From Escherichia phage VpaE1_ev108: 64,000 nucleotides of DNA. Within the stretch, counting starts at the first letter, position 1, and each line of letters begins with the position of its first letter. The position numbers and the translations under genes are program-made. The stretch is from the sequence record LR597658. The stretch is one strand, 5' to 3'. Shown here in pieces: positions 2,263 through 7,237 of this stretch. The notes beneath the pieces were generated by a model. The model saw only the letters and a program-made list of their open reading frames with translations. It did no database searches and had not been told where the DNA came from.

Positions 2263-2339
2263 CTCTGTTTAGCTCAGCTTGGTAGAGCGTTCCGTTTGGG
2301 GCGGTAAGGCCGGAGGTTCAAGTCCTCCAACAGAGACCA
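2263..2339 (+). tRNA. tRNA-Pro (anticodon TGG)
   Basis: 7-bp acceptor ctctgtt/aacagag, D-arm gctc-agcttggta-gagc, anticodon loop tttgggg, T-arm ggagg-ttcaagt-cctcc, CCA encoded. Confidence 0.8.
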
Positions 2340-2346
2340 AATTAAT

Positions 2347-2424
2347 GTTCCAGTAGACAAAATGGTAAAGTCACCACTCTTTCAAAGTGGATATCTGAGG
2401 GTTCAAATCCCTTCTGGAACGCCA
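2347..2424 (+). tRNA. tRNA-Glu (anticodon TTC)
   Basis: acceptor gttccag/ctggaac, anticodon stem ccact/agtgg with loop ctttcaa, T-loop ttcaaat, CCA encoded. Confidence 0.8.
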
Positions 2425-2431
2425 GTTTTGA

Positions 2432-2505
2432 CAGAAGACCAATTACAGCAAACTTAATCTTATTCATCTGAAGGTAAATCGGACAAAGAAGAGATTTGGT
2501 CTGGT
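2432..2505 (+). ncRNA. conserved spacer stem-loop element (copy 1), CAGAAGACC / GGTCTGG stem
   Basis: 5' cagaagaccaatt pairs with 3' atttggtctggtc (agaccaa/ttggtct); encloses about 50 nt; same stem sequences recur at 2598-2665, 3053-3128, 3142-3274. Confidence 0.45.
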
Positions 2506-2516
2506 CATTAAGAATT

Positions 2517-2592
2517 GCGGGTATAGAGAAAGGGCGTCTCACATGTCTCATTAGCATGGTATCGGCAGGTTCGACTCCTGCACCCGCCTCCA
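2517..2592 (+). tRNA. tRNA-Met (anticodon CAT); possible initiator-type
   Basis: D-arm gaga/tctc, anticodon stem catgt/gcatg with loop ctcatta (CAT), T-arm gcagg-ttcgact-cctgc; 1-nt register ambiguity at acceptor gives a possible 1-72 mismatch. Confidence 0.65.
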
Positions 2593-2597
2593 AATTT

Positions 2598-2665
2598 ACA
2601 GAAGACCGTTTACAGCAATATTTATTAAATTTTTAGCGGAAAAAATTGAAAGATACGGTCTGGTA
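2598..2665 (+). ncRNA. conserved spacer stem-loop element (copy 2)
   Basis: 5' cagaagaccgt pairs with 3' acggtctggtaat (7 bp agaccgt/acggtct); encloses about 45 AT-rich nt. Confidence 0.45.
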
Positions 2666-2676
2666 ATACTAAACAT

Positions 2677-2753
2677 GGTTAGGAAGCACATAAGGTATGT
2701 GCGGTCGCCTGTTAAGCGAATGGCACAGGGTTCGAATCCCTGACTAACCGCCA
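2677..2753 (+). tRNA. tRNA-Asn (anticodon GTT)
   Basis: acceptor ggttagg/actaacc, D-arm gcac-ataaggtat-gtgc, anticodon loop ctgttaa, T-arm caggg-ttcgaat-ccctg, CCA encoded. Confidence 0.75.
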
Positions 2754-2822
2754 AATTTAGGAGAGAAGCGATTGCTCACCGATTTGTAAGGTGCAAGTCC
2801 TTAGCCTGAATAGAAATTAAAT

Positions 2823-2910
2823 GTGTCGTTATCCCGTAGATGGTAGCGGTGGGGACTGTAAATCCCTTGTCATTGAGACTCGGTAGGTTCGACTCCTACA
2901 CGGCACACCA
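2823..2910 (+). tRNA. tRNA-Tyr (anticodon GTA), long variable arm
   Basis: 88 nt; acceptor gtgtcgt/acggcac, anticodon loop ctgtaaa, long variable arm, T-arm gtagg-ttcgact-cctac, CCA encoded. Confidence 0.75.
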
Positions 2911-2915
2911 ATAAA

Positions 2916-2993
2916 GGTTATGTAGTTTAATTTGGTTAAAATACTCCCCTGTCACGGGAGATGATGAGGGTTCAAATCCCTTCGTAACCGCCA
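2916..2993 (+). tRNA. tRNA-Asp (anticodon GTC)
   Basis: acceptor ggttatg/cgtaacc, anticodon stem ctccc/gggag with loop ctgtcac, T-arm gaggg-ttcaaat-ccctt, CCA encoded. Confidence 0.8.
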
Positions 2994-3052
2994 ATTTTGA
3001 GAGGGCTATTTAGCCCCTCCCTTAAAGGGTTCTTACGAGTATTCTTTAAAGG

Positions 3053-3128
3053 AGCAGAAGACCAAATTCAGCAAGTTACTTAAAATTTCAAGCCAATTTA
3101 ATTTTGAAAAATTTAAAACTTGGTCTGG
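3053..3128 (+). ncRNA. conserved spacer stem-loop element (copy 3)
   Basis: 5' cagaagaccaaattc pairs with 3' aaacttggtctggc (agaccaa/ttggtct); AU-rich 50-nt loop. Confidence 0.45.
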
Positions 3129-3141
3129 CTCAACAAATTTA

Positions 3142-5300: not shown

Positions 5301-5319
5301 ATTTAAAGAGGCTATTTAG

Positions 5320-5877
5320 ATGAGATATTTGAAGTATGCTTCATGGATTTTCTTAGCTTTGTTAGAACCATTTGCAGCAATCTTAGCAGTTATCTTAGCA
5401 CCTTTTGTAGTTCCATTCTACAGTGAGAAGAAAGGACACTTACCTTTCGGGTTCAGATGGATGGAGACATATGACAACCCAATTGATGGTGATGAAGGTC
5501 ACGTTAAAAGATGGGCTAATATTAGATGGATTGGTAAACTAGGTGTCTACATGCAAAGAGTCGGATGGCTCTGGAGAAACAAAGCTTATAACTTCTCTTA
5601 CCATGTGTTAGGAAGAGATGTAAAAGATGTTACTAAGTGGAAAGGTAATATCAACGTAAGTTCTAACCCTGAAGATAATCAGACAGGTTATCTCCTAATG
5701 TGGAACAGTAATGCTTGGGGATTATTCGCTTTTACCCCATCAATTAAAATCTTTGGTAAACAGTTTTACTGGAGAATTTATATTGGGTGGAAGCTAAAAA
5801 GTGTTGTCCCAGAAGAAAGAGCATTCTCAAGGGAAAGAGTTATGTTGGCATTCTTTATTCATCCACTAAGAAAGTAA
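5320..5877 (+). CDS. hypothetical membrane protein embedded in tRNA array
   Basis: 185-aa ORF with RBS; hydrophobic N-terminus (WIFLALLEPFAAILAVILAPFVV); Trp/Tyr-rich. Confidence 0.7.
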   Translation: MRYLKYASWIFLALLEPFAAILAVILAPFVVPFYSEKKGHLPFGFRWMETYDNPIDGDEGHVKRWANIRWIGKLGVYMQRVGWLWRNKAYNFSYHVLGRDVKDVTKWKGNINVSSNPEDNQTGYLLMWNSNAWGLFAFTPSIKIFGKQFYWRIYIGWKLKSVVPEERAFSRERVMLAFFIHPLRK

Positions 5878-5885
5878 AGATTTAA

Positions 5886-5961
5886 AGGGGATTAGTTTAC
5901 AAGGTTAAAACCTCGGTCTTTGAAATCGAAGAAGTTGGTTCAATTCCAACATCCCCCGCCA
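5886..5961 (+). tRNA. tRNA-Gln (anticodon TTG)
   Basis: D-arm gttt-acaaggtta-aaac, anticodon stem tcggt/atcga with loop ctttgaa, T-arm gttgg-ttcaatt-ccaac, CCA encoded; 1-72 mismatch. Confidence 0.65.
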
Positions 5962-5963
5962 AT

Positions 5964-6042
5964 GCTCCATTACTCCAATTGGCAGAGAGGCCAGACTTAA
6001 AATCTGTGTTATGTATCGGTTCGAATCCGATATGGAGTACCA
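5964..6042 (+). tRNA. tRNA with anticodon TAA (Leu-type), 7-nt variable loop
   Basis: acceptor gctccat/atggagt, anticodon stem ccaga/tctgt with loop cttaaaa, T-arm atcgg-ttcgaat-ccgat, CCA encoded. Confidence 0.6.
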
Positions 6043-6047
6043 AATTT

Positions 6048-6123
6048 AGCGGTATAGCATAACTGGCAATGCAGCAGCCTCTGAAGCTGTCCTATTAAGG
6101 TTCAAATCCTTATGCCGCTGCCA
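6048..6123 (+). tRNA. tRNA-Gln (anticodon CTG)
   Basis: D-arm gcat-aactggca-atgc, anticodon stem gcagc/gctgt with loop ctctgaa, T-arm taagg-ttcaaat-cctta, CCA encoded. Confidence 0.7.
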
Positions 6124-6154
6124 CTTCTAAGGATTCTTGCGAGAGTCCTTAAAT

Positions 6155-6230
6155 GTGGCCTTATCATAAACGGTAATGACCCATGCTGTGAACATGGTCT
6201 ATACGGGTTCAAATCCCGTAGGTCACCCCA
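6155..6230 (+). tRNA. tRNA-His (anticodon GTG)
   Basis: acceptor gtggcct/aggtcac, anticodon stem ccatg/catgg with loop ctgtgaa, T-arm acggg-ttcaaat-cccgt, CCA encoded. Confidence 0.75.
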
Positions 6231-6236
6231 ATTTAT

Positions 6237-6312
6237 AGTCCAAGTAGCTTATATGGTTAAAGCGCGTGTCTGAAAAACATGAGAAGAGGGTTCAAATCCC
6301 ACTGGACTACCA
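6237..6312 (+). tRNA. tRNA-Phe (anticodon GAA)
   Basis: D-arm gctt-atatggtta-aagc, anticodon stem cgtgt/acatg with loop ctgaaaa, T-loop ttcaaat; 1-2 nt register ambiguity at acceptor/T-stem junction. Confidence 0.65.
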
Positions 6313-6328
6313 ATTTCAAAGGTGCTTA

Positions 6329-7063
6329 ATGAAAGAGATGACAGAACAAGGTAAGGAGATTTTTAATCTCTTAAAAACCGGTAAAGGGTTCTCTAACCCA
6401 CTTATTACTGGTGCAGCAGTTCTCGGTGGAACCGTAGCTGCTTCTACATCACTTGTAAGCTCTATTAGTTCTGTAACAGACCCTACAATGAAGGAGAAAC
6501 TTGTTGCTGCTGGACTTACAACAGTCCTTCTAAACAGCTTTACAACAAGCCTTACAAGCACTACAGCAACTACTAAAACTCTGACAGACTACGGTCAAAA
6601 GTCTATTGATGAGTTTTCATCACGTATGCAGGTAGCAAAGGGGTATTCCAATGTTATGGGTGCAGCAGGAGAACAAGTTGGTTGTACACCATTCAGTGGT
6701 ATCATGGGTGTTGCTACAGAGTATGGTCAAAAAGCTATTGACATGATGAACAGTACACTAGATAGTGTTAATGGTGTGTTAAGTGACTTGCAAGATGCTA
6801 TTGATAAGGGTCTTGATACTGTTTCTGATTTAGCTAATCAGGCTGTTAGTAAGATTAATGAAGGTATTTCAAAGATTACAGCTTATGCAGATGAAGTTGT
6901 GCAGATGATTGAAGAAGAAGCTGCCCTTATTGCAGAGTACCTTAAAACGAATATCAATGGGTTCTTAGCAGGTATCTTACCAGACTGGTTTGATGATGCC
7001 TGTAAAACTGGTGTAATTGACACTATTGCAACACCAGAAATGAAGAGCGCATTACAGAAATAA
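6329..7063 (+). CDS. hypothetical protein (Thr/Ser-rich N-terminal region, coiled-coil C-terminal region)
   Basis: ORF track 6266..7063 begins at a GTG inside tRNA-Phe; first ATG after the tRNA with a weak RBS is 6329, giving 244 aa. Confidence 0.65.
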   Translation: MKEMTEQGKEIFNLLKTGKGFSNPLITGAAVLGGTVAASTSLVSSISSVTDPTMKEKLVAAGLTTVLLNSFTTSLTSTTATTKTLTDYGQKSIDEFSSRMQVAKGYSNVMGAAGEQVGCTPFSGIMGVATEYGQKAIDMMNSTLDSVNGVLSDLQDAIDKGLDTVSDLANQAVSKINEGISKITAYADEVVQMIEEEAALIAEYLKTNINGFLAGILPDWFDDACKTGVIDTIATPEMKSALQK

Positions 7064-7064
7064 T

Positions 7065-7157
7065 GGAAGATTAACCCTAAAAGGTAAGGGAGCAGTTTGC
7101 TAAACTGCCAGTAGCTGAGAAATCGGTGTACCAGTTCAAGTCTGGTATCTTCCTCCA
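7065..7157 (+). tRNA. tRNA-Ser (anticodon GCT), long variable arm
   Basis: 93 nt; perfect acceptor ggaagat/atcttcc, anticodon stem gcagt/actgc with loop ttgctaa, long variable arm, T-arm accag-ttcaagt-ctggt, CCA encoded. Confidence 0.8.
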
Positions 7158-7161
7158 ATTT

Positions 7162-7237
7162 GAATCCGTGACAGAAATGGCTATGTGCCTGTCTGCAAAA
7201 CAGGTTTATAAGGGTTCGAGTCCCTTCGGATTCTCCA
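7162..7237 (+). tRNA. tRNA-Cys (anticodon GCA)
   Basis: perfect acceptor gaatccg/cggattc, anticodon stem cctgt/acagg with loop ctgcaaa, T-arm aaggg-ttcgagt-ccctt, CCA encoded. Confidence 0.8.

What the first reader, a model, noticed from the sequence alone, without database searches (positions are those of the whole stretch)
2263..7237. Large tRNA array (about 27 genes) with possible anti-defence roles
The array covers Pro, Glu, Met, Asn, Tyr, Asp, Lys (TTT and CTT), CAT, Ile, Arg (TCT and ACG), Trp, Ser (TGA and GCT), Ala, Gly, Thr, Val, Gln (TTG and CTG), His, Phe, Cys and three Leu-type anticodons, most with encoded CCA. Beyond codon adaptation, phage tRNAs can replace host tRNAs cut by anticodon nucleases; two tRNA-Lys genes and tRNA-Tyr/Asn/Thr are the usual targets of such systems. 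A membrane-protein gene (5320..5877) and internal promoters and terminators are embedded in the array.
Basis: partly seen in the sequence, partly recalled or inferred. Interest (0 to 1): 0.6.

Follow-up and report, generated by a model that had tools for sequence, protein, structure and literature searches.

The report
Phage tRNA array hiding Y-RNAs
This is the well-known tRNA gene cluster of a Felix O1-type E. coli phage, but four of its "spacers" are Y-RNA-like molecules that probably partner the Ro60-like protein encoded just upstream, and nobody seems to have mapped them before.

Summary
The 27th ("Trp") is rejected by every predictor, yet it is a conserved tRNA-like RNA with a Trp anticodon loop and an aberrant D arm.

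The window is a Felixounavirus, 96-98% identical to many GenBank phages, so the array itself is already known. The set decodes 19 of 20 amino acids. It favours exactly the A-ending and rare codons that this 39%-GC phage over-uses (AGA is 16-fold above the host sample).

An anti-defence role is plausible but unproven. The anticodon loops of Lys, Tyr, Asn and Thr are identical to E. coli's; only the stems differ.

The new part lies in the gaps. The gene upstream (682..2097) folds as Ro60. Four spacers (2432-2507, 2599-2666, 3055-3130, 3142-3275) share a conserved "handle" of the form AG-helix-ACAGCAA...helix-CUG. The last one encloses a permuted tRNA-like domain, as in bacterial YrlA. Covariance models built only from unrelated phages hit all four, with E from 1e-7 to 2.5e-11. 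The same modules flank Ro60-like genes in dozens of phage lineages.

The parts
229..600 (+). DUF5681 protein gene (context, upstream of the Ro60-like gene)
   Evidence: Pfam PF18932, E 2e-14
613..642 (+). promoter-like site (TTGACA-18-TAAAGT) in front of the Ro60-like gene
   Evidence: consensus match only
682..2097 (+). Ro60-like RNA-binding protein gene (471 aa; helical-repeat ring plus vWA domain with the MIDAS motif DxSxS)
   Evidence: Pfam DUF2828 + DUF7788. AF2 model pLDDT 89.5. The top 9 Foldseek PDB hits are all full-length Ro60/Rsr/phage Ro60, E 4e-8 to 7e-7. D279/S281/S283 are invariant in 47 homologs. The Bas63 protein gp130, likewise encoded just upstream of that phage's tRNA array, counters Ppl.
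2116..2144 (+). promoter-like site P1 of the array (TTGACA-17-TAATAT)
2207..2236 (+). promoter-like site P2 of the array (TTGACA-18-TAAAGT, with TG)
2263..2339 (+). tRNA-Pro (UGG)
2347..2424 (+). tRNA-Glu (UUC)
2432..2507 (+). Y-like module 1 (short): handle AGACCAA/UUGGUCU, UUACAGCAA, outer stem UGAC/GUCA. It fills the whole Glu-Met spacer.
   Evidence: CM R1, built from unrelated phages: 35.2 bits, E 3e-6. Also R2 E 7e-4 and the regex census.
2516..2592 (+). tRNA (CAU) no. 1, initiator-like: 1x72 mismatch, U37, acceptor stem like T5 tRNA-fMet
   Evidence: ARAGORN. Only 15.9 bits in Rfam. 71% identical to the T5 tRNA annotated fMet.
2599..2666 (+). Y-like module 2 (short): handle AGACCGU/ACGGUCU, UUACAGCAA, outer stem UUAC/GUAA
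   Evidence: R1: 40.9 bits, E 1e-7. R2: E 1.6e-3.
2677..2753 (+). tRNA-Asn (GUU)
2754..2822 (+). 69-nt spacer present in only some relatives (indel between Asn and Tyr)
   Evidence: present in L002, L005 and L007; absent in L001, L004, L006 and L008
2823..2910 (+). tRNA-Tyr (GUA), class II
   Evidence: 84-87% identical to tRNA-Tyr of T4-like, rV5-like and T5-like phages, against 66% to E. coli.
2916..2993 (+). tRNA-Asp (GUC)
3055..3130 (+). Y-like module 3 (short): handle AGACCAA/UUGGUCU, AUUCAGCAA, outer stem GAGC/GCUC
   Evidence: R1: 33.9 bits, E 7e-6
3142..3275 (+). Y-like module 4 (long, YrlA-like). Order: handle AGACCGUU/AACGGUCU, UACAGCAA, hairpin UUUCU-CCGGUAA-AGAAA, T arm GAAGG-UUCGAUU-CCUUC, closed acceptor-like hairpin ACUCGGC-AGAU-GUCGAGU, D-arm-like GGUGUAAUGGUAGUAC.
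   Evidence: CM R2, built from 9 non-Ounavirinae loci: 61.1 bits, E 2.5e-11, full length. Partial Rfam tRNA hit at 3165-3214. Compensatory changes in the AS hairpin against Sf14.
3272..3421 (+). structured spacer closed by a long, near-perfect stem; function unknown
   Evidence: MFE -48.3 kcal/mol, z -6.3. 97-100% conserved in Felixounavirus, absent in Sf14.
3422..3497 (+). tRNA-Lys (UUU)
3502..3578 (+). tRNA (CAU) no. 2, probably elongator Met (G1-C72; AUA codons are rare in the phage)
3580..3655 (+). tRNA-Ile (GAU)
3671..3699 (+). internal promoter-like site (TTGACA-17-TATAGT, 11 of 12)
3700..3902 (+). conserved structured spacer (unknown RNA)
   Evidence: 89% identical to Sf14, against 77-79% for the neighbouring coding genes. 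3 compensatory pairs.
3903..3979 (+). tRNA-Arg (UCU)
   Evidence: The AGA codon is 16-fold enriched over the host sample.
3980..4117 (+). conserved structured spacer (unknown RNA)
4121..4203 (+). tRNA-Trp-like RNA: 7-bp acceptor stem plus GCCA, anticodon arm with CCA, T arm, but about 8 extra nt before a 3-bp D stem
   Evidence: Not called by ARAGORN or Rfam. 89-97% conserved. Compensatory changes in the T stem and D stem against Sf14. Relatives carry the E. coli-type Trp loop CUCCAAA, the window carries UUCCAAC.
4218..4307 (+). tRNA-Ser (UGA), class II, no encoded CCA
   Evidence: The same tRNA type is carried by phages that infect Syn61-delta-3, eight of which (REP05-12) are Felixounaviruses.
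4308..4562 (+). conserved structured spacer (unknown RNA)
   Evidence: 6 compensatory pairs
4563..4640 (+). tRNA-Leu (UAG), short variable region
4648..4723 (+). tRNA-Lys (CUU); E. coli K-12 has no such isoacceptor
   Evidence: AAG is 2.6-fold enriched.
4729..4804 (+). tRNA-Ala (UGC)
4811..4885 (+). tRNA-Gly (UCC)
4893..4968 (+). tRNA-Thr (UGU)
4969..5065 (+). conserved structured spacer (unknown RNA)
   Evidence: z -3.2. 93-98% conserved, including in Sf14.
5066..5140 (+). tRNA-Val (UAC)
5142..5219 (+). tRNA-Leu (CAA), short variable region
5225..5300 (+). tRNA-Arg (ACG)
5320..5877 (+). DUF7338 protein gene with a hydrophobic N-terminus, inserted in the array
   Evidence: Pfam E 1e-61. Absent at this place in Mooglevirus Sf14.
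5886..5961 (+). tRNA-Gln (UUG)
5964..6042 (+). tRNA-Leu (UAA), short variable region
6048..6123 (+). tRNA-Gln (CUG)
6155..6230 (+). tRNA-His (GUG)
6237..6312 (+). tRNA-Phe (GAA)
6329..7063 (+). DUF7217 protein gene (annotated 'putative membrane protein' in relatives), inside the array
   Evidence: Pfam E 2e-87
7065..7157 (+). tRNA-Ser (GCU), class II
7162..7237 (+). tRNA-Cys (GCA)
7275..7335 (+). long hairpin GCCCUG...CAGGGC followed by U6: likely terminator of the array
   Evidence: read directly from the sequence; not reported by the scan
7400..7417 (+). terminator-like hairpin plus U6

Best explanation
The region is the tRNA operon of a Felix O1-type (Felixounavirus) E. coli phage. It has two layers.

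Layer 1, the tRNAs. There are 26 functional tRNA genes plus one aberrant Trp-like tRNA. They are transcribed from sigma-70-type promoters at about 2116, 2207 and 3671, and processed by host RNase P and 3' nucleases. Together they form an almost complete, U34-rich decoding set covering 19 or 20 amino acids. The set matches the phage's AT-rich codon usage (AGA, UCA, ACA, CUA, AAG, CCA, UUA). It makes phage translation largely independent of the supply of host tRNAs. Buffering against tRNA-cutting defence systems is a likely side benefit, by replenishment and possibly through altered anticodon stems. It has not been shown to be the primary role.

Layer 2, the Y-like RNAs. Four spacers in the first 1 kb of the operon are not junk. 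Each is an RNA module with a conserved handle: a 7-8 bp helix that starts with AG and ends with CU-G, followed on its inner 5' side by (U)ACAGCAA. Three modules carry a short A/U-rich loop. The fourth carries a circularly permuted tRNA-like domain (T arm, closed acceptor-like hairpin, D arm) like that of bacterial YrlA Y RNAs. Because they sit between tRNAs, ordinary tRNA processing should release them as RNAs of about 70-135 nt. I infer that they bind the Ro60-like protein encoded just upstream (682..2097) through the handle, and so form a phage Ro60/Y-RNA particle.

Shown: the tRNA genes, the codon match, the Ro60 fold, the existence and conservation of the modules, and their genomic linkage to Ro60-like genes. 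Inferred: transcription and processing, protein-RNA binding, and any role in RNA quality control or counter-defence.
For: Identity of the locus:
- 96-98% identical over 9 kb to more than 190 Felixounavirus genomes that carry the same annotated tRNAs.

tRNAs:
- 26 by ARAGORN and 25 by Rfam's tRNA-clan models; 25 encode CCA.
- 57-79% identical to E. coli tRNAs, and often closer to T5 tRNAs.

Codon match:
- The window is 39.4% GC, the host sample 52.4%.
- Enrichment over the host sample: AGA 16x, UCA 5.6x, ACA 4.7x, CUA 3.2x, AAG 2.6x.
- Codons that are Watson-Crick cognates of phage tRNAs are enriched over the other codons (Mann-Whitney p 0.039).

Function of related tRNAs in vivo:
- Eight Felixounaviruses are reported to infect Syn61-delta-3, which cannot read TCA/TCG; phages that do so encode tRNA-Ser(UGA) (PMC12269064).

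Ro60-like protein:
- AF2 model pLDDT 89.5. The top nine PDB fold hits are all full-length Ro60/Rsr/phage Ro60.
- The MIDAS residues are invariant.
- Mycobacteriophage homologs are annotated 'Ro-like'.
- Bas63 gp130 is described as Ro60-like and as a counter to Ppl.

Modules:
- Four exact CAGAAGACC...GGTCTGG pairs occur only here on the + strand.
- The paralogs show compensatory changes in both stems.
- Strict census in 83 DUF2828 loci: 98 modules on the gene's strand, 2 on the opposite strand, 0-6 in shuffles.
- R1 and R2, built without any Ounavirinae sequence, hit the window modules at E 1e-7, 3e-6, 7e-6 and 2.5e-11. The next-best window hit of R1 is E 0.19; the next-best R2 hit outside the modules is 0.0075, across a tandem tRNA junction.
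- All 56 R1 hits and all 43 R2 hits in other loci lie on the gene's strand. There are none in T5 or in 50 kb of E. coli.
- R2 also finds a module right after the Ro-like gene of mycobacteriophage BigCheese.
- RNAalifold on the long modules: 17 of 21 pairs show compensatory changes.
- Rfam YrlA hits four long modules at E 3e-5 to 0.04 and aligns their T, AS and D arms.

Linkage to tRNA arrays:
- 27 of 76 other DUF2828 loci have tRNAs within 5 kb. All 158 of those tRNAs are co-oriented with the gene.
Against: - There is no expression, processing or binding data for this phage. Everything about the RNP is inferred from synteny and homology.
- Rfam's YrlA model does not hit the window copy at all. 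It hits homologous modules only below its gathering score (29-40 bits against 69).
- The handle lacks the GNCGAA(N)G motif that Chen et al. link to Ro60 binding.
- Bas63 gp130 alone rescues T7 from Ppl without any phage Y-like RNA, so at least that activity may not need the modules.
- The codon-match statistic is only modestly significant, and the host codon sample is a single 49-kb region.
- Two members look non-standard, the first CAU tRNA and the Trp-like RNA, and all three Leu tRNAs lack the long variable arm. Their charging is therefore uncertain.
Confidence: 0.72

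Rival explanations
1. The array exists mainly as a counter-defence. It supplies nuclease-resistant or surplus copies of the tRNAs cut by PARIS, PrrC/RloC, retron Eco7 (PtuAB), Schlafen-type and similar systems.
For: - T5 tRNA-Lys neutralises PARIS and T5 tRNA-Tyr neutralises retron Eco7 (PMC11464382 and PMC11555353).
- The window has both Lys isoacceptors plus Tyr, Asn and Thr.
- All anticodon stems differ from the host's. For Lys-UUU they differ at 28-42 and 29-41, beside the AriB cut at 40|41.
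- tRNA-Tyr belongs to a type shared at 84-87% identity among unrelated coliphages.
- Rescue by abundance needs no sequence change, and Tyr lies behind two strong promoter-like sites.
- The tRNA-cutting retron Eco2 does not protect against most Felixounavirus species (PMC12916289).
Against: - The 7-nt anticodon loops of Lys-UUU, Tyr, Asn and Thr are identical to E. coli's.
- The window's tRNA-Lys keeps the host A31-U39 pair. T5's U31-A39 swap is the change that confers PARIS resistance (inferred).
- The set covers nearly all amino acids rather than the known targets, and it follows codon bias.
- Bas63 tRNAs are mostly non-essential on four K-12 strains.
- No defence assay implicating these tRNAs turned up in the literature searches run here.
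Confidence: 0.3
2. Pure codon compensation or translational autonomy, with no link to defence and no function for the spacers. On this view the spacers are only processing spacers or decayed tRNA genes.
For: - Strong codon-usage mismatch with the host, with phage tRNAs cognate to the over-used codons.
- The Syn61-delta-3 result shows translational use of the phage tRNA.
- The long module and the Trp-like RNA contain tRNA-like pieces.
Against: - The spacers are more conserved between genera (84-96% for most, only the module-1 spacer at 77%) than the neighbouring protein genes (77-79%).
- The modules are found with the same handle next to Ro60-like genes in distant phages that have no similar tRNAs.
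- The permuted order T arm, closed acceptor hairpin, D arm cannot arise by simple decay of a tRNA gene, and it shows covariation.
Confidence: 0.12
3. The repeated TTTACAG...ACAGCAA motifs are DNA-level signals, such as phage-specific promoters or protein-binding sites, rather than RNA modules.
For: - One copy overlaps a weak promoter-like match (TTTACA-16-AATATT at 2595-2622).
- The motif sits in intergenic DNA at the head of an operon.
Against: - The conserved features are an RNA helix whose two strands lie 50-125 nt apart and covary.
- Strand specificity is strict: 98 against 2, and all 56 R1 and 43 R2 hits on one strand.
- The enclosed domains are T, acceptor-like and D arms.
- There is no fixed -35/-10 geometry across lineages.
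Confidence: 0.04

Closest known systems
tRNA gene cluster of Felix O1-like phages (Felixounavirus / Ounavirinae), e.g. Escherichia phages fjerdesal, LMP34, REP5-7 and Shigella phage Sf14
   Same: Same genes in the same order between the DUF2828 gene and the large terminase. 96-98% nucleotide identity within the genus, and the same 26 tRNAs in Mooglevirus Sf14.
   Different: Only minor indels separate them: the 69-nt Asn-Tyr spacer, and the presence of the DUF7338 gene. The window's Trp-like RNA has two loop substitutions. GenBank records annotate none of the Y-like modules or the Trp-like RNA.
[quoted passage not shown] 2014, PMC4201824); Thermus phage phiLo phiRo60 with Yrl1/Yrl2 (PMC12135203); Rfam RF02553
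   Same: - A Ro60-fold protein with several small structured RNAs encoded beside it on the same strand.
- One RNA carries a tRNA-like domain in the order T arm, closed acceptor-like stem-loop, D arm, between the two strands of a closing stem.
- Rfam YrlA aligns to that domain in homologous modules.
   Different: - The protein matches Pfam DUF2828/DUF7788, not TROVE.
- The handle is AG-helix-(U)ACAGCAA...helix-CUG, not GNCGAA(N)G or CGAA.
- The window copy is not detected by RF02553.
- There are four copies, interleaved with tRNA genes, so tRNA processing should release them.
- Binding to the protein is untested.
Phage T5 tRNA region with its 'stable RNAs of unknown function' (RNAI, RNAIII, RNAIV, RNA1-3, RNA2H), and T5 tRNA-Lys and tRNA-Tyr as counter-defence
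   Same: A large tRNA array mixed with small ORFs, internal promoters and non-tRNA stable RNAs, some described as tRNA-like. Individual tRNAs are 59-82% identical to the window's, and the initiator-like tRNA is shared.
   Different: In the 16-kb T5 tRNA region searched, neither R1 nor R2 found a module, and no Ro60-like gene is annotated there. T5 tRNA-Lys carries the U31-A39 swap that the window's tRNA-Lys lacks.
Bas63 gp130 (PhageMaP preprint, PMC11482910)
   Same: A Felixounavirus protein encoded in the same position, directly upstream of the tRNA array. It is described as structurally similar to Ro60. The authors speculate that some downstream 'tRNAs' are Y RNAs.
   Different: The preprint names no RNA. 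Here the candidates are mapped, and they turn out to lie in the spacers rather than among the annotated tRNAs. gp130 counters Ppl even when expressed alone in T7.

Membership tests
Canonical bacterial-type tRNA genes | Cloverleaf recognised by tRNA predictors or covariance models | tested here: met
   26 by ARAGORN. 25 match Rfam tRNA-clan models, 23 of them above gathering. The first CAU tRNA is weak (15.9 bits). The Trp-like RNA at 4121-4203 fails.
Canonical bacterial-type tRNA genes | tRNA-Leu, Ser and Tyr have a long variable arm (class II) | tested here: not met
   Ser (90 and 93 nt) and Tyr (88 nt) are class II. All three Leu-anticodon tRNAs have a 4-7 nt variable region.
Canonical bacterial-type tRNA genes | Aminoacylation and use in translation | not testable with these tools
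   Indirect only: Felixounavirus REP05-12 infect Syn61-delta-3, and phages that do so encode tRNA-Ser(UGA) (PMC12269064).
Felixounavirus tRNA cluster | Same gene order and high nucleotide identity to sequenced members | tested here: met
   232 phage records cover at least 80% of 1..9000, and 192 are 95-99% identical. Annotation of fjerdesal and Sf14 agrees.
Nuclease-evading phage tRNAs (van den Berg 2023 model; T5 tRNA-Lys against PARIS) | The phage encodes an isoacceptor of the targeted host tRNA | tested here: met
   Lys-UUU, Tyr, Asn, Thr, Asp, His and Arg are all present.
Nuclease-evading phage tRNAs (van den Berg 2023 model; T5 tRNA-Lys against PARIS) | The anticodon-loop sequence differs from the host tRNA's | tested here: not met
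   Loops are identical for Lys-UUU, Tyr, Asn, Thr, Asp, Ile, both Arg, Ser-UGA, Gly, Val and CAU no. 2. The other 13 differ at positions 32, 37 or 38.
Nuclease-evading phage tRNAs (van den Berg 2023 model; T5 tRNA-Lys against PARIS) | A change in the anticodon stem at the site that gives PARIS resistance (31-39 swap, as in T5) | tested here: not met
   The window's Lys-UUU and Lys-CUU keep A31-U39 like E. coli; T5 has U31-A39 (PMC11464382). Other stem pairs do differ (28-42 and 29-41), so resistance is not excluded.
Nuclease-evading phage tRNAs (van den Berg 2023 model; T5 tRNA-Lys against PARIS) | Resistance to cleavage, or rescue of infection | not testable with these tools
   Needs cleavage and plaque assays.
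Ro60 / TROVE proteins | Helical-repeat ring plus a C-terminal vWA domain | tested here: met
   AF2 model pLDDT 89.5. Foldseek hits to 9kop, 9nfa, 2i91, 1yvp and 2nvo span 520-560 columns, TM 0.5-0.65.
Ro60 / TROVE proteins | MIDAS motif (DxSxS) in the vWA domain | tested here: met
   D279, S281 and S283 are invariant in 47 homologs.
Ro60 / TROVE proteins | Sequence match to the Pfam TROVE domain or to solved Ro60 chains | tested here: not met
   Pfam gives DUF2828 + DUF7788 only. phmmer against PDB finds nothing. A profile gives 1yvp at E 0.91.
YrlA-type Y RNA (Rfam RF02553; Chen et al. 2014) | Encoded within a few kb of the Ro60 gene on the same strand | tested here: met
   All four modules lie 335-1180 nt downstream of the gene's stop codon on the + strand.
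YrlA-type Y RNA (Rfam RF02553; Chen et al. 2014) | tRNA-like domain in the order T arm, acceptor-like stem-loop, D arm, enclosed by a terminal stem | tested here: met
   Module 4 meets this: R2 61.1 bits, full length. Covariation in homologs. The YrlA model aligns these arms in L003. Modules 1-3 lack the domain, as YrlB does.
YrlA-type Y RNA (Rfam RF02553; Chen et al. 2014) | Reaches the Rfam gathering score (69 bits) | tested here: not met
   No hit in the window even at E 10. Homologous modules score 28.7-39.6 bits.
YrlA-type Y RNA (Rfam RF02553; Chen et al. 2014) | GNCGAA(N)G motif near the 5' end | tested here: not met
   The conserved 5' motif is AAG-helix-UUACAGCAA. The window has CAGAAGACC...ACAGCAA.
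YrlA-type Y RNA (Rfam RF02553; Chen et al. 2014) | Bound by the Ro60 protein | not testable with these tools
   Needs RIP/CLIP or EMSA.

The most novel reading that the evidence does not exclude
DUF2828-type Ro60-like proteins of tailed phages have a dedicated, previously undescribed class of modular partner RNAs. The phages range from mycobacteriophages to Felix O1-like, phi92-like and many uncultured lineages.

The RNAs share a universal handle, AG-helix-(U)ACAGCAA...helix-CU(A)G. The handle carries interchangeable cargo: short loops, a permuted tRNA-like domain, whole tRNA-like inserts, or a conserved AACCUUUCYGGAGGGGAAAGCAAAAACUCGCC domain.

In Felixounavirus the modules are embedded in the tRNA operon, so tRNA-processing enzymes would release them in step with the tRNAs. 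The resulting particle would act on tRNA or RNA metabolism during infection. Possible roles are surveillance or trimming of the phage's own unusual tRNAs, or decoying or recruiting host nucleases as part of counter-defence (Ppl).
Probability: 0.5. Interest if true: 0.65.

Novelty: new member of a known kind. Interest (0 to 1): 0.45.

Why it matters
The tRNA array itself is textbook for this phage genus. Two things could still matter.

First, it gives concrete, testable RNA candidates, with coordinates and a conserved handle motif, for the Ro60-like protein of Felixounaviruses. That protein was recently reported to counter the Ppl defence system, and its RNA partners were only guessed at. Because the modules recur beside DUF2828 genes in many phage lineages, two covariance models could now annotate phage Y-like RNAs that Rfam's YrlA model misses.

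Second, the host comparison shows that the popular "anticodon-loop mutation" test does not apply here. The loops of the usual nuclease targets are identical to the host's. Any protection must therefore come from abundance or from changes in the stems. This sharpens which experiments are worth doing, for example on therapeutic Felix O1-like phages and on virus-resistant recoded hosts.

Tried and rejected
- Single-sequence AF2 of the 471-aa protein gave a useless model (pLDDT 45). It was redone with an alignment.
- phmmer and profile searches against PDB sequences found no significant Ro60 match. Only fold comparison did.
- Rfam at E<=1 over 9 kb, and at E<=10 over 1 kb, found no Y-RNA family in the window. 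Weak tmRNA, miRNA and Dictyostelium class I hits in the gaps were treated as noise.
- ARAGORN with relaxed score and with introns allowed did not recover the Trp-like RNA. It produced only spurious calls such as 'Pyl' and intron-containing genes.
- Rfam found no YrlA in mycobacteriophage BigCheese, although my model R2 did.
- A loose helix-plus-CAGCAA scan was too noisy (227 against 121 hits). It was replaced by a strict one (98 against 2).
- The supplementary tables of Chen et al. 2014, listing their 22 phages, are not held. I could not check whether any Felix O1-like phage was in that list.
- The idea that CAU no. 2 is a lysidine tRNA-Ile2 was judged less likely, because AUA is only 4% of the phage's Ile codons. 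This is not settled.
- No R1 or R2 module was found in the T5 tRNA region despite its annotated stable RNAs.

Full report
WHAT THE WINDOW IS. The first 9 kb of the window match 352 phage records. 192 of them are 95-99% identical, and almost all are Felix O1-like phages of Escherichia, Salmonella and Shigella. In annotated relatives the gene order is a DUF5681 gene, a 'vWFA' or 'RNA-binding' protein, a long run of tRNAs with two embedded ORFs, a small ORF, the large terminase and the portal. Examples are Escherichia phage fjerdesal (Felixounavirus) and Shigella phage Sf14 (Mooglevirus). The window has the same order. The array is therefore the known tRNA cluster of the Ounavirinae.

CHECK OF THE OBSERVATION. 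Rfam matches 25 of them to tRNA-clan models. The first CAU tRNA (2516-2592) is weak, at 15.9 bits. 25 of the 26 encode CCA; Ser-UGA does not.

The sequence at 4121-4203 nevertheless has:
- a 7-bp acceptor stem followed by GCCA;
- a T arm;
- an anticodon arm with CCA.

It is 89-97% conserved in relatives. Against Sf14 it shows compensatory changes in the T stem (G-C to U-A) and in a 3-bp D stem (CUC/GAG to CAC/GUG). Relatives carry the E. coli-type Trp loop CUCCAAA, while the window carries UUCCAAC. About 8 extra nucleotides before the D stem explain why predictors reject it. It is the only candidate for the one amino acid the array otherwise lacks.

The embedded ORF 5320..5877 is a real gene (DUF7338, E 1e-61), and so is 6329..7063 (DUF7217, E 2e-87). 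Promoter-like sites with a perfect TTGACA lie at 613, 2116, 2207 and 3671. The total number of promoter-like matches is not above shuffled expectation. Terminator-like hairpins with U-runs lie after the array (7275-7335 by eye; 7400-7417), not inside it.

THE tRNAs COMPARED WITH THE HOST. I fetched 16 regions of E. coli K-12 MG1655. They hold a host tRNA for every phage anticodon except Lys-CUU, which E. coli K-12 does not have (established knowledge).

Overall similarity:
- Phage tRNAs are 57-79% identical to their host counterparts.
- They are often closer to phage T5 tRNAs: Ser-UGA 82%, Glu 78%, Gln 78%, Pro 77%, His 77%, Thr 76%.
- tRNA-Tyr is 84-87% identical to tRNA-Tyr of T4-like, rV5-like and T5-like phages.
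- These are therefore old, phage-circulating tRNAs, not recent captures from the host.

Anticodon arms:
- The 7-nt loop is identical to the host's in 12 of 25 comparable tRNAs.
- The other 13 differ at positions 32, 37 or 38.
- Every anticodon stem differs.

PARIS:
- Comparing the sequences, the only swapped pair between E. coli and T5 is 31-39 (A-U against U-A). That is my inference.
- The window's two tRNA-Lys keep A31-U39, but differ at 28-42 and 29-41.

Retron Eco7: rescue by T5 tRNA-Tyr depends on strong expression, and E. coli tRNA-Tyr behind the phage promoter also rescues (PMC11555353). Identical loops therefore do not exclude protection by replenishment.

Other observations:
- The first CAU tRNA shares its acceptor stem (UGCGGGU.../ACCCGC-N-UCCA, with a 1x72 mismatch) with the T5 tRNA annotated as initiator.
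- The second CAU tRNA has a paired G1-C72. AUA is only 4% of phage Ile codons, which favours elongator Met over a lysidine tRNA-Ile.
- All three Leu-anticodon tRNAs have a 4-7 nt variable region instead of the long arm of bacterial tRNA-Leu.

CODON USAGE. I compared 61 long ORFs of the window (17,406 codons, 39.4% GC) with 31 E. coli genes (10,796 codons, 52.4% GC). The largest excesses in the phage are:
- AGA 16x (tRNA-Arg UCU)
- UCA 5.6x (Ser UGA)
- ACA 4.7x (Thr UGU)
- CUA 3.2x (Leu UAG)
- AAG 2.6x (Lys CUU)
- CCA 2.4x
- UUA 2.1x

Codons that are Watson-Crick cognates of phage tRNAs are enriched relative to the others (mean log2 +0.45 against -0.37, p 0.039). The set has U34 anticodons for every four-codon box, plus ACG and UCU for Arg. 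It is thus close to a minimal complete decoding set.

Independent experimental support comes from the Syn61-delta-3 work. Eight Felixounaviruses (REP05-12) are among the few phages that infect Syn61-delta-3, a host that lacks the TCA/TCG decoders. The phages that manage this encode tRNA-Ser(UGA) (PMC12269064). REP5-7 are 96.4% identical to the window here. In Bas63, another Felixounavirus, the tRNAs are mostly dispensable on four K-12 strains (PMC11482910).

THE UPSTREAM GENE IS A Ro60 HOMOLOG. The 471-aa product of 682..2097 matches Pfam DUF2828 and DUF7788. It has thousands of homologs in phages and metagenomes. It occurs in 709 phage genomes, and the mycobacteriophage copies (31-34% identity) are annotated 'Ro-like RNA binding protein'. 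Sequence searches against PDB fail. An AlphaFold model built with 47 homologs (pLDDT 89.5) has as its nine best PDB matches only full-length Ro60 proteins: Thermus phage phiRo60 9KOP, Xenopus Ro60, and Deinococcus Rsr (E 4e-8 to 7e-7). The MIDAS residues DxSxS are invariant. The PhageMaP preprint independently calls Bas63 gp130 Ro60-like. It shows that gp130 counters the Ppl defence, and it guesses that 'some tRNA genes are possibly Y RNAs'.

THE GAPS HOLD Y-RNA-LIKE MODULES. Four spacers contain CAGAAGACC ... GGTCTGG. Each folds as follows:
- an outer 4-bp stem;
- a small internal loop;
- a 7-8 bp helix that starts with AG and ends with CU;
- the sequence (U)ACAGCAA on the inner 5' side of that helix.

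The four paralogs differ by compensatory changes in both stems:
- inner helix: AA/UU against GU/AC;
- outer stem: UGAC/GUCA, UUAC/GUAA, GAGC/GCUC.

Modules 1-3 enclose A/U-rich loops. Module 4 (3142-3275) encloses, in order, a 5-bp hairpin, a T arm (GAAGG-UUCGAUU-CCUUC), a 7-bp hairpin closed by a tetraloop, and a D-arm-like segment. This is the order T, AS, D that Chen et al. described for YrlA (PMC4201824).

The same handle appears in other lineages:
- downstream of the DUF2828 gene of Klebsiella phage FBKp34, from a different subfamily, again in front of a tRNA array;
- in many IMG/VR loci fetched through the protein.

Statistics:
- A strict pattern (AG-helix, 1-3 nt, CAGCAA, perfect complementary strand ending CU-G) occurs 98 times on the gene's strand of 83 loci, 2 times on the other strand, and 0-6 times in shuffles.
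- A covariance model of 21 short modules, none from the Ounavirinae (A2, R1), finds window modules 2, 1 and 3 at E 1e-7, 3e-6 and 7e-6. The next hit in 64 kb is at E 0.19.
- A model of nine long modules from other lineages (A3, R2) finds module 4 at 61 bits, E 2.5e-11, over its full length. Its RNAalifold consensus has compensatory changes in 17 of 21 pairs.
- In the other loci, all 56 R1 hits and all 43 R2 hits are on the gene's strand and lie next to the gene. There are none in the T5 tRNA region or in 50 kb of E. coli.
- R2 also finds a module immediately after the Ro-like gene of mycobacteriophage BigCheese, where three ACAGCAA modules can be read.
- Rfam's YrlA model hits four of the long modules below threshold (E 3e-5 to 0.04) and aligns their T, AS and D arms. 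It does not hit the window copy.
- 27 of 76 non-Felix DUF2828 loci carry tRNAs within 5 kb, and all 158 of those tRNAs are co-oriented with the gene.

HOW IT PROBABLY WORKS. Shown by the analysis: genuine tRNA genes, the codon match, a Ro60-fold protein, conserved structured modules, and their tight linkage to Ro60-like genes.

Inferred:
- The operon is transcribed from host-type promoters.
- RNase P and 3' processing of the flanking tRNAs release modules 1 and 2 as the complete Glu-Met and Met-Asn spacers. They release modules 3 and 4 from the Asp-Lys spacer.
- The handle is the binding site of the Ro60-like protein.

What the particle does is open. Precedents are:
- Y-RNA-tethered exoribonuclease machines (Rsr/Y RNA/PNPase; phiRo60 with host PNPase, PMC12135203);
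- the link between Rsr/YrlA and tRNA damage and repair operons in Salmonella;
- anti-Ppl activity, which however works with gp130 alone in T7.

OTHER CONTENT OF THE ARRAY. Between Felixounavirus and Mooglevirus, the remaining spacers (3700-3902, 3980-4117, 4308-4562, 4969-5065) are 81-94% identical, against 77-79% for the neighbouring protein genes. Several show compensatory pairs. The spacer at 3272-3421 is a very stable stem-closed structure (z -6.3) that is confined to Felixounavirus. These look like further stable RNAs, comparable to the annotated 'stable RNAs of unknown function' in the T5 tRNA region.

VERDICT. The best-supported role is translational autonomy matched to codon bias, with defence buffering as a possible by-product. 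The added value is the mapping of four Y-RNA-like modules, plus a Trp-like tRNA, inside the array, and their link to the upstream Ro60-like gene. That makes them a new member of the known Ro60/Y-RNA kind, with a distinct handle. I found no description of these modules in the searched literature. I could not see the phage list of Chen et al. 2014.

Noticed in passing
window 4563-4640, 5142-5219, 5964-6042: All three tRNAs with Leu anticodons (UAG, CAA, UAA) are 78-79 nt, with a 4-7 nt variable region, a 3-bp D stem and an 11-nt D loop. Bacterial tRNA-Leu normally has a long variable arm. Klebsiella phage FBKp34 also has a 78-nt tRNA-Leu(UAG) (L003 8713-8790). Whether LeuRS charges them is unknown.
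   Followed up: partly
window 4121-4203: The window's Trp-like RNA has the loop UUCCAAC, whereas six relatives have CUCCAAA, the E. coli tRNA-Trp loop. That is two substitutions, at positions 32 and 38, in this isolate only.
   Followed up: partly
window 3272-3421: A 150-nt element closed by a long, near-perfect stem (MFE -48 kcal/mol, z -6.3). It contains a mini hairpin CAGAC-CUUAAGCAA-GUCUG reminiscent of the module handle. It is conserved at 97-100% in Felixounavirus and absent from Sf14.
   Followed up: partly
window 3700-3902, 3980-4117, 4308-4562, 4969-5065: Four further spacers are better conserved between genera than the adjacent protein genes, and they fold into structures with some compensatory changes. 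They are likely additional stable RNAs of unknown function. Rfam gives only weak tmRNA-like noise there.
   Followed up: partly
window 2754-2822: A 69-nt insertion between tRNA-Asn and tRNA-Tyr is present in some relatives (L002, L005, L007) and absent in others, where Asn and Tyr are 9 nt apart (L001). It contains a T-arm-like GGUGCAAGUCCUUAGCC.
   Followed up: no
window 2516-2592: The first CAU tRNA has U at position 37 (normally a purine), an extra nucleotide between the acceptor stem and the D stem, and a U1xC72 mismatch. It resembles the T5 tRNA annotated as initiator.
   Followed up: partly
window 5320-5877: The DUF7338 gene sits between tRNA-Arg(ACG) and tRNA-Gln(UUG) in Felixounavirus. 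It is missing at that position in Mooglevirus Sf14, where a different 175-nt spacer precedes tRNA-Arg(ACG). It looks like a mobile insertion into the array.
   Followed up: no
L010 3133-3233, L013 149-281, L016 1265-1374, L026 4734-4829: Another cargo class inside the same handle: a conserved domain ...GAACCUUUCYGGAGGGGAAAGCAAAAACUCGCCAAAA... in several uncultured phages. It matches no Rfam family I saw.
   Followed up: no
L042 4734-4834, L082 7520-7616: In some phages the handle encloses an unpermuted tRNA-like insert: a D arm, an anticodon arm with UGU or UCU, and a T arm. One scores 55 bits as a tRNA in Rfam. The handle replaces or extends the acceptor stem.
   Followed up: no
L101 4440-4710 (Mycobacterium phage BigCheese): Three ACAGCAA-handle modules (short, long with T/AS/D arms, short) lie directly after the 'Ro-like RNA binding protein' gene. 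The 3' strand ends in CAG instead of CUG. Rfam YrlA does not detect them at E<=0.1.
   Followed up: partly
window 43206-43267: Weak R1 hit (16.3 bits, E 0.19) with a CAGCAA motif, far from the array. Probably chance.
   Followed up: no
L100 (phage T5, 24000-40000): The T5 tRNA region is annotated with seven 'stable RNAs with unknown functions', three of them called tRNA-like. None matches the handle models R1 or R2.
   Followed up: partly
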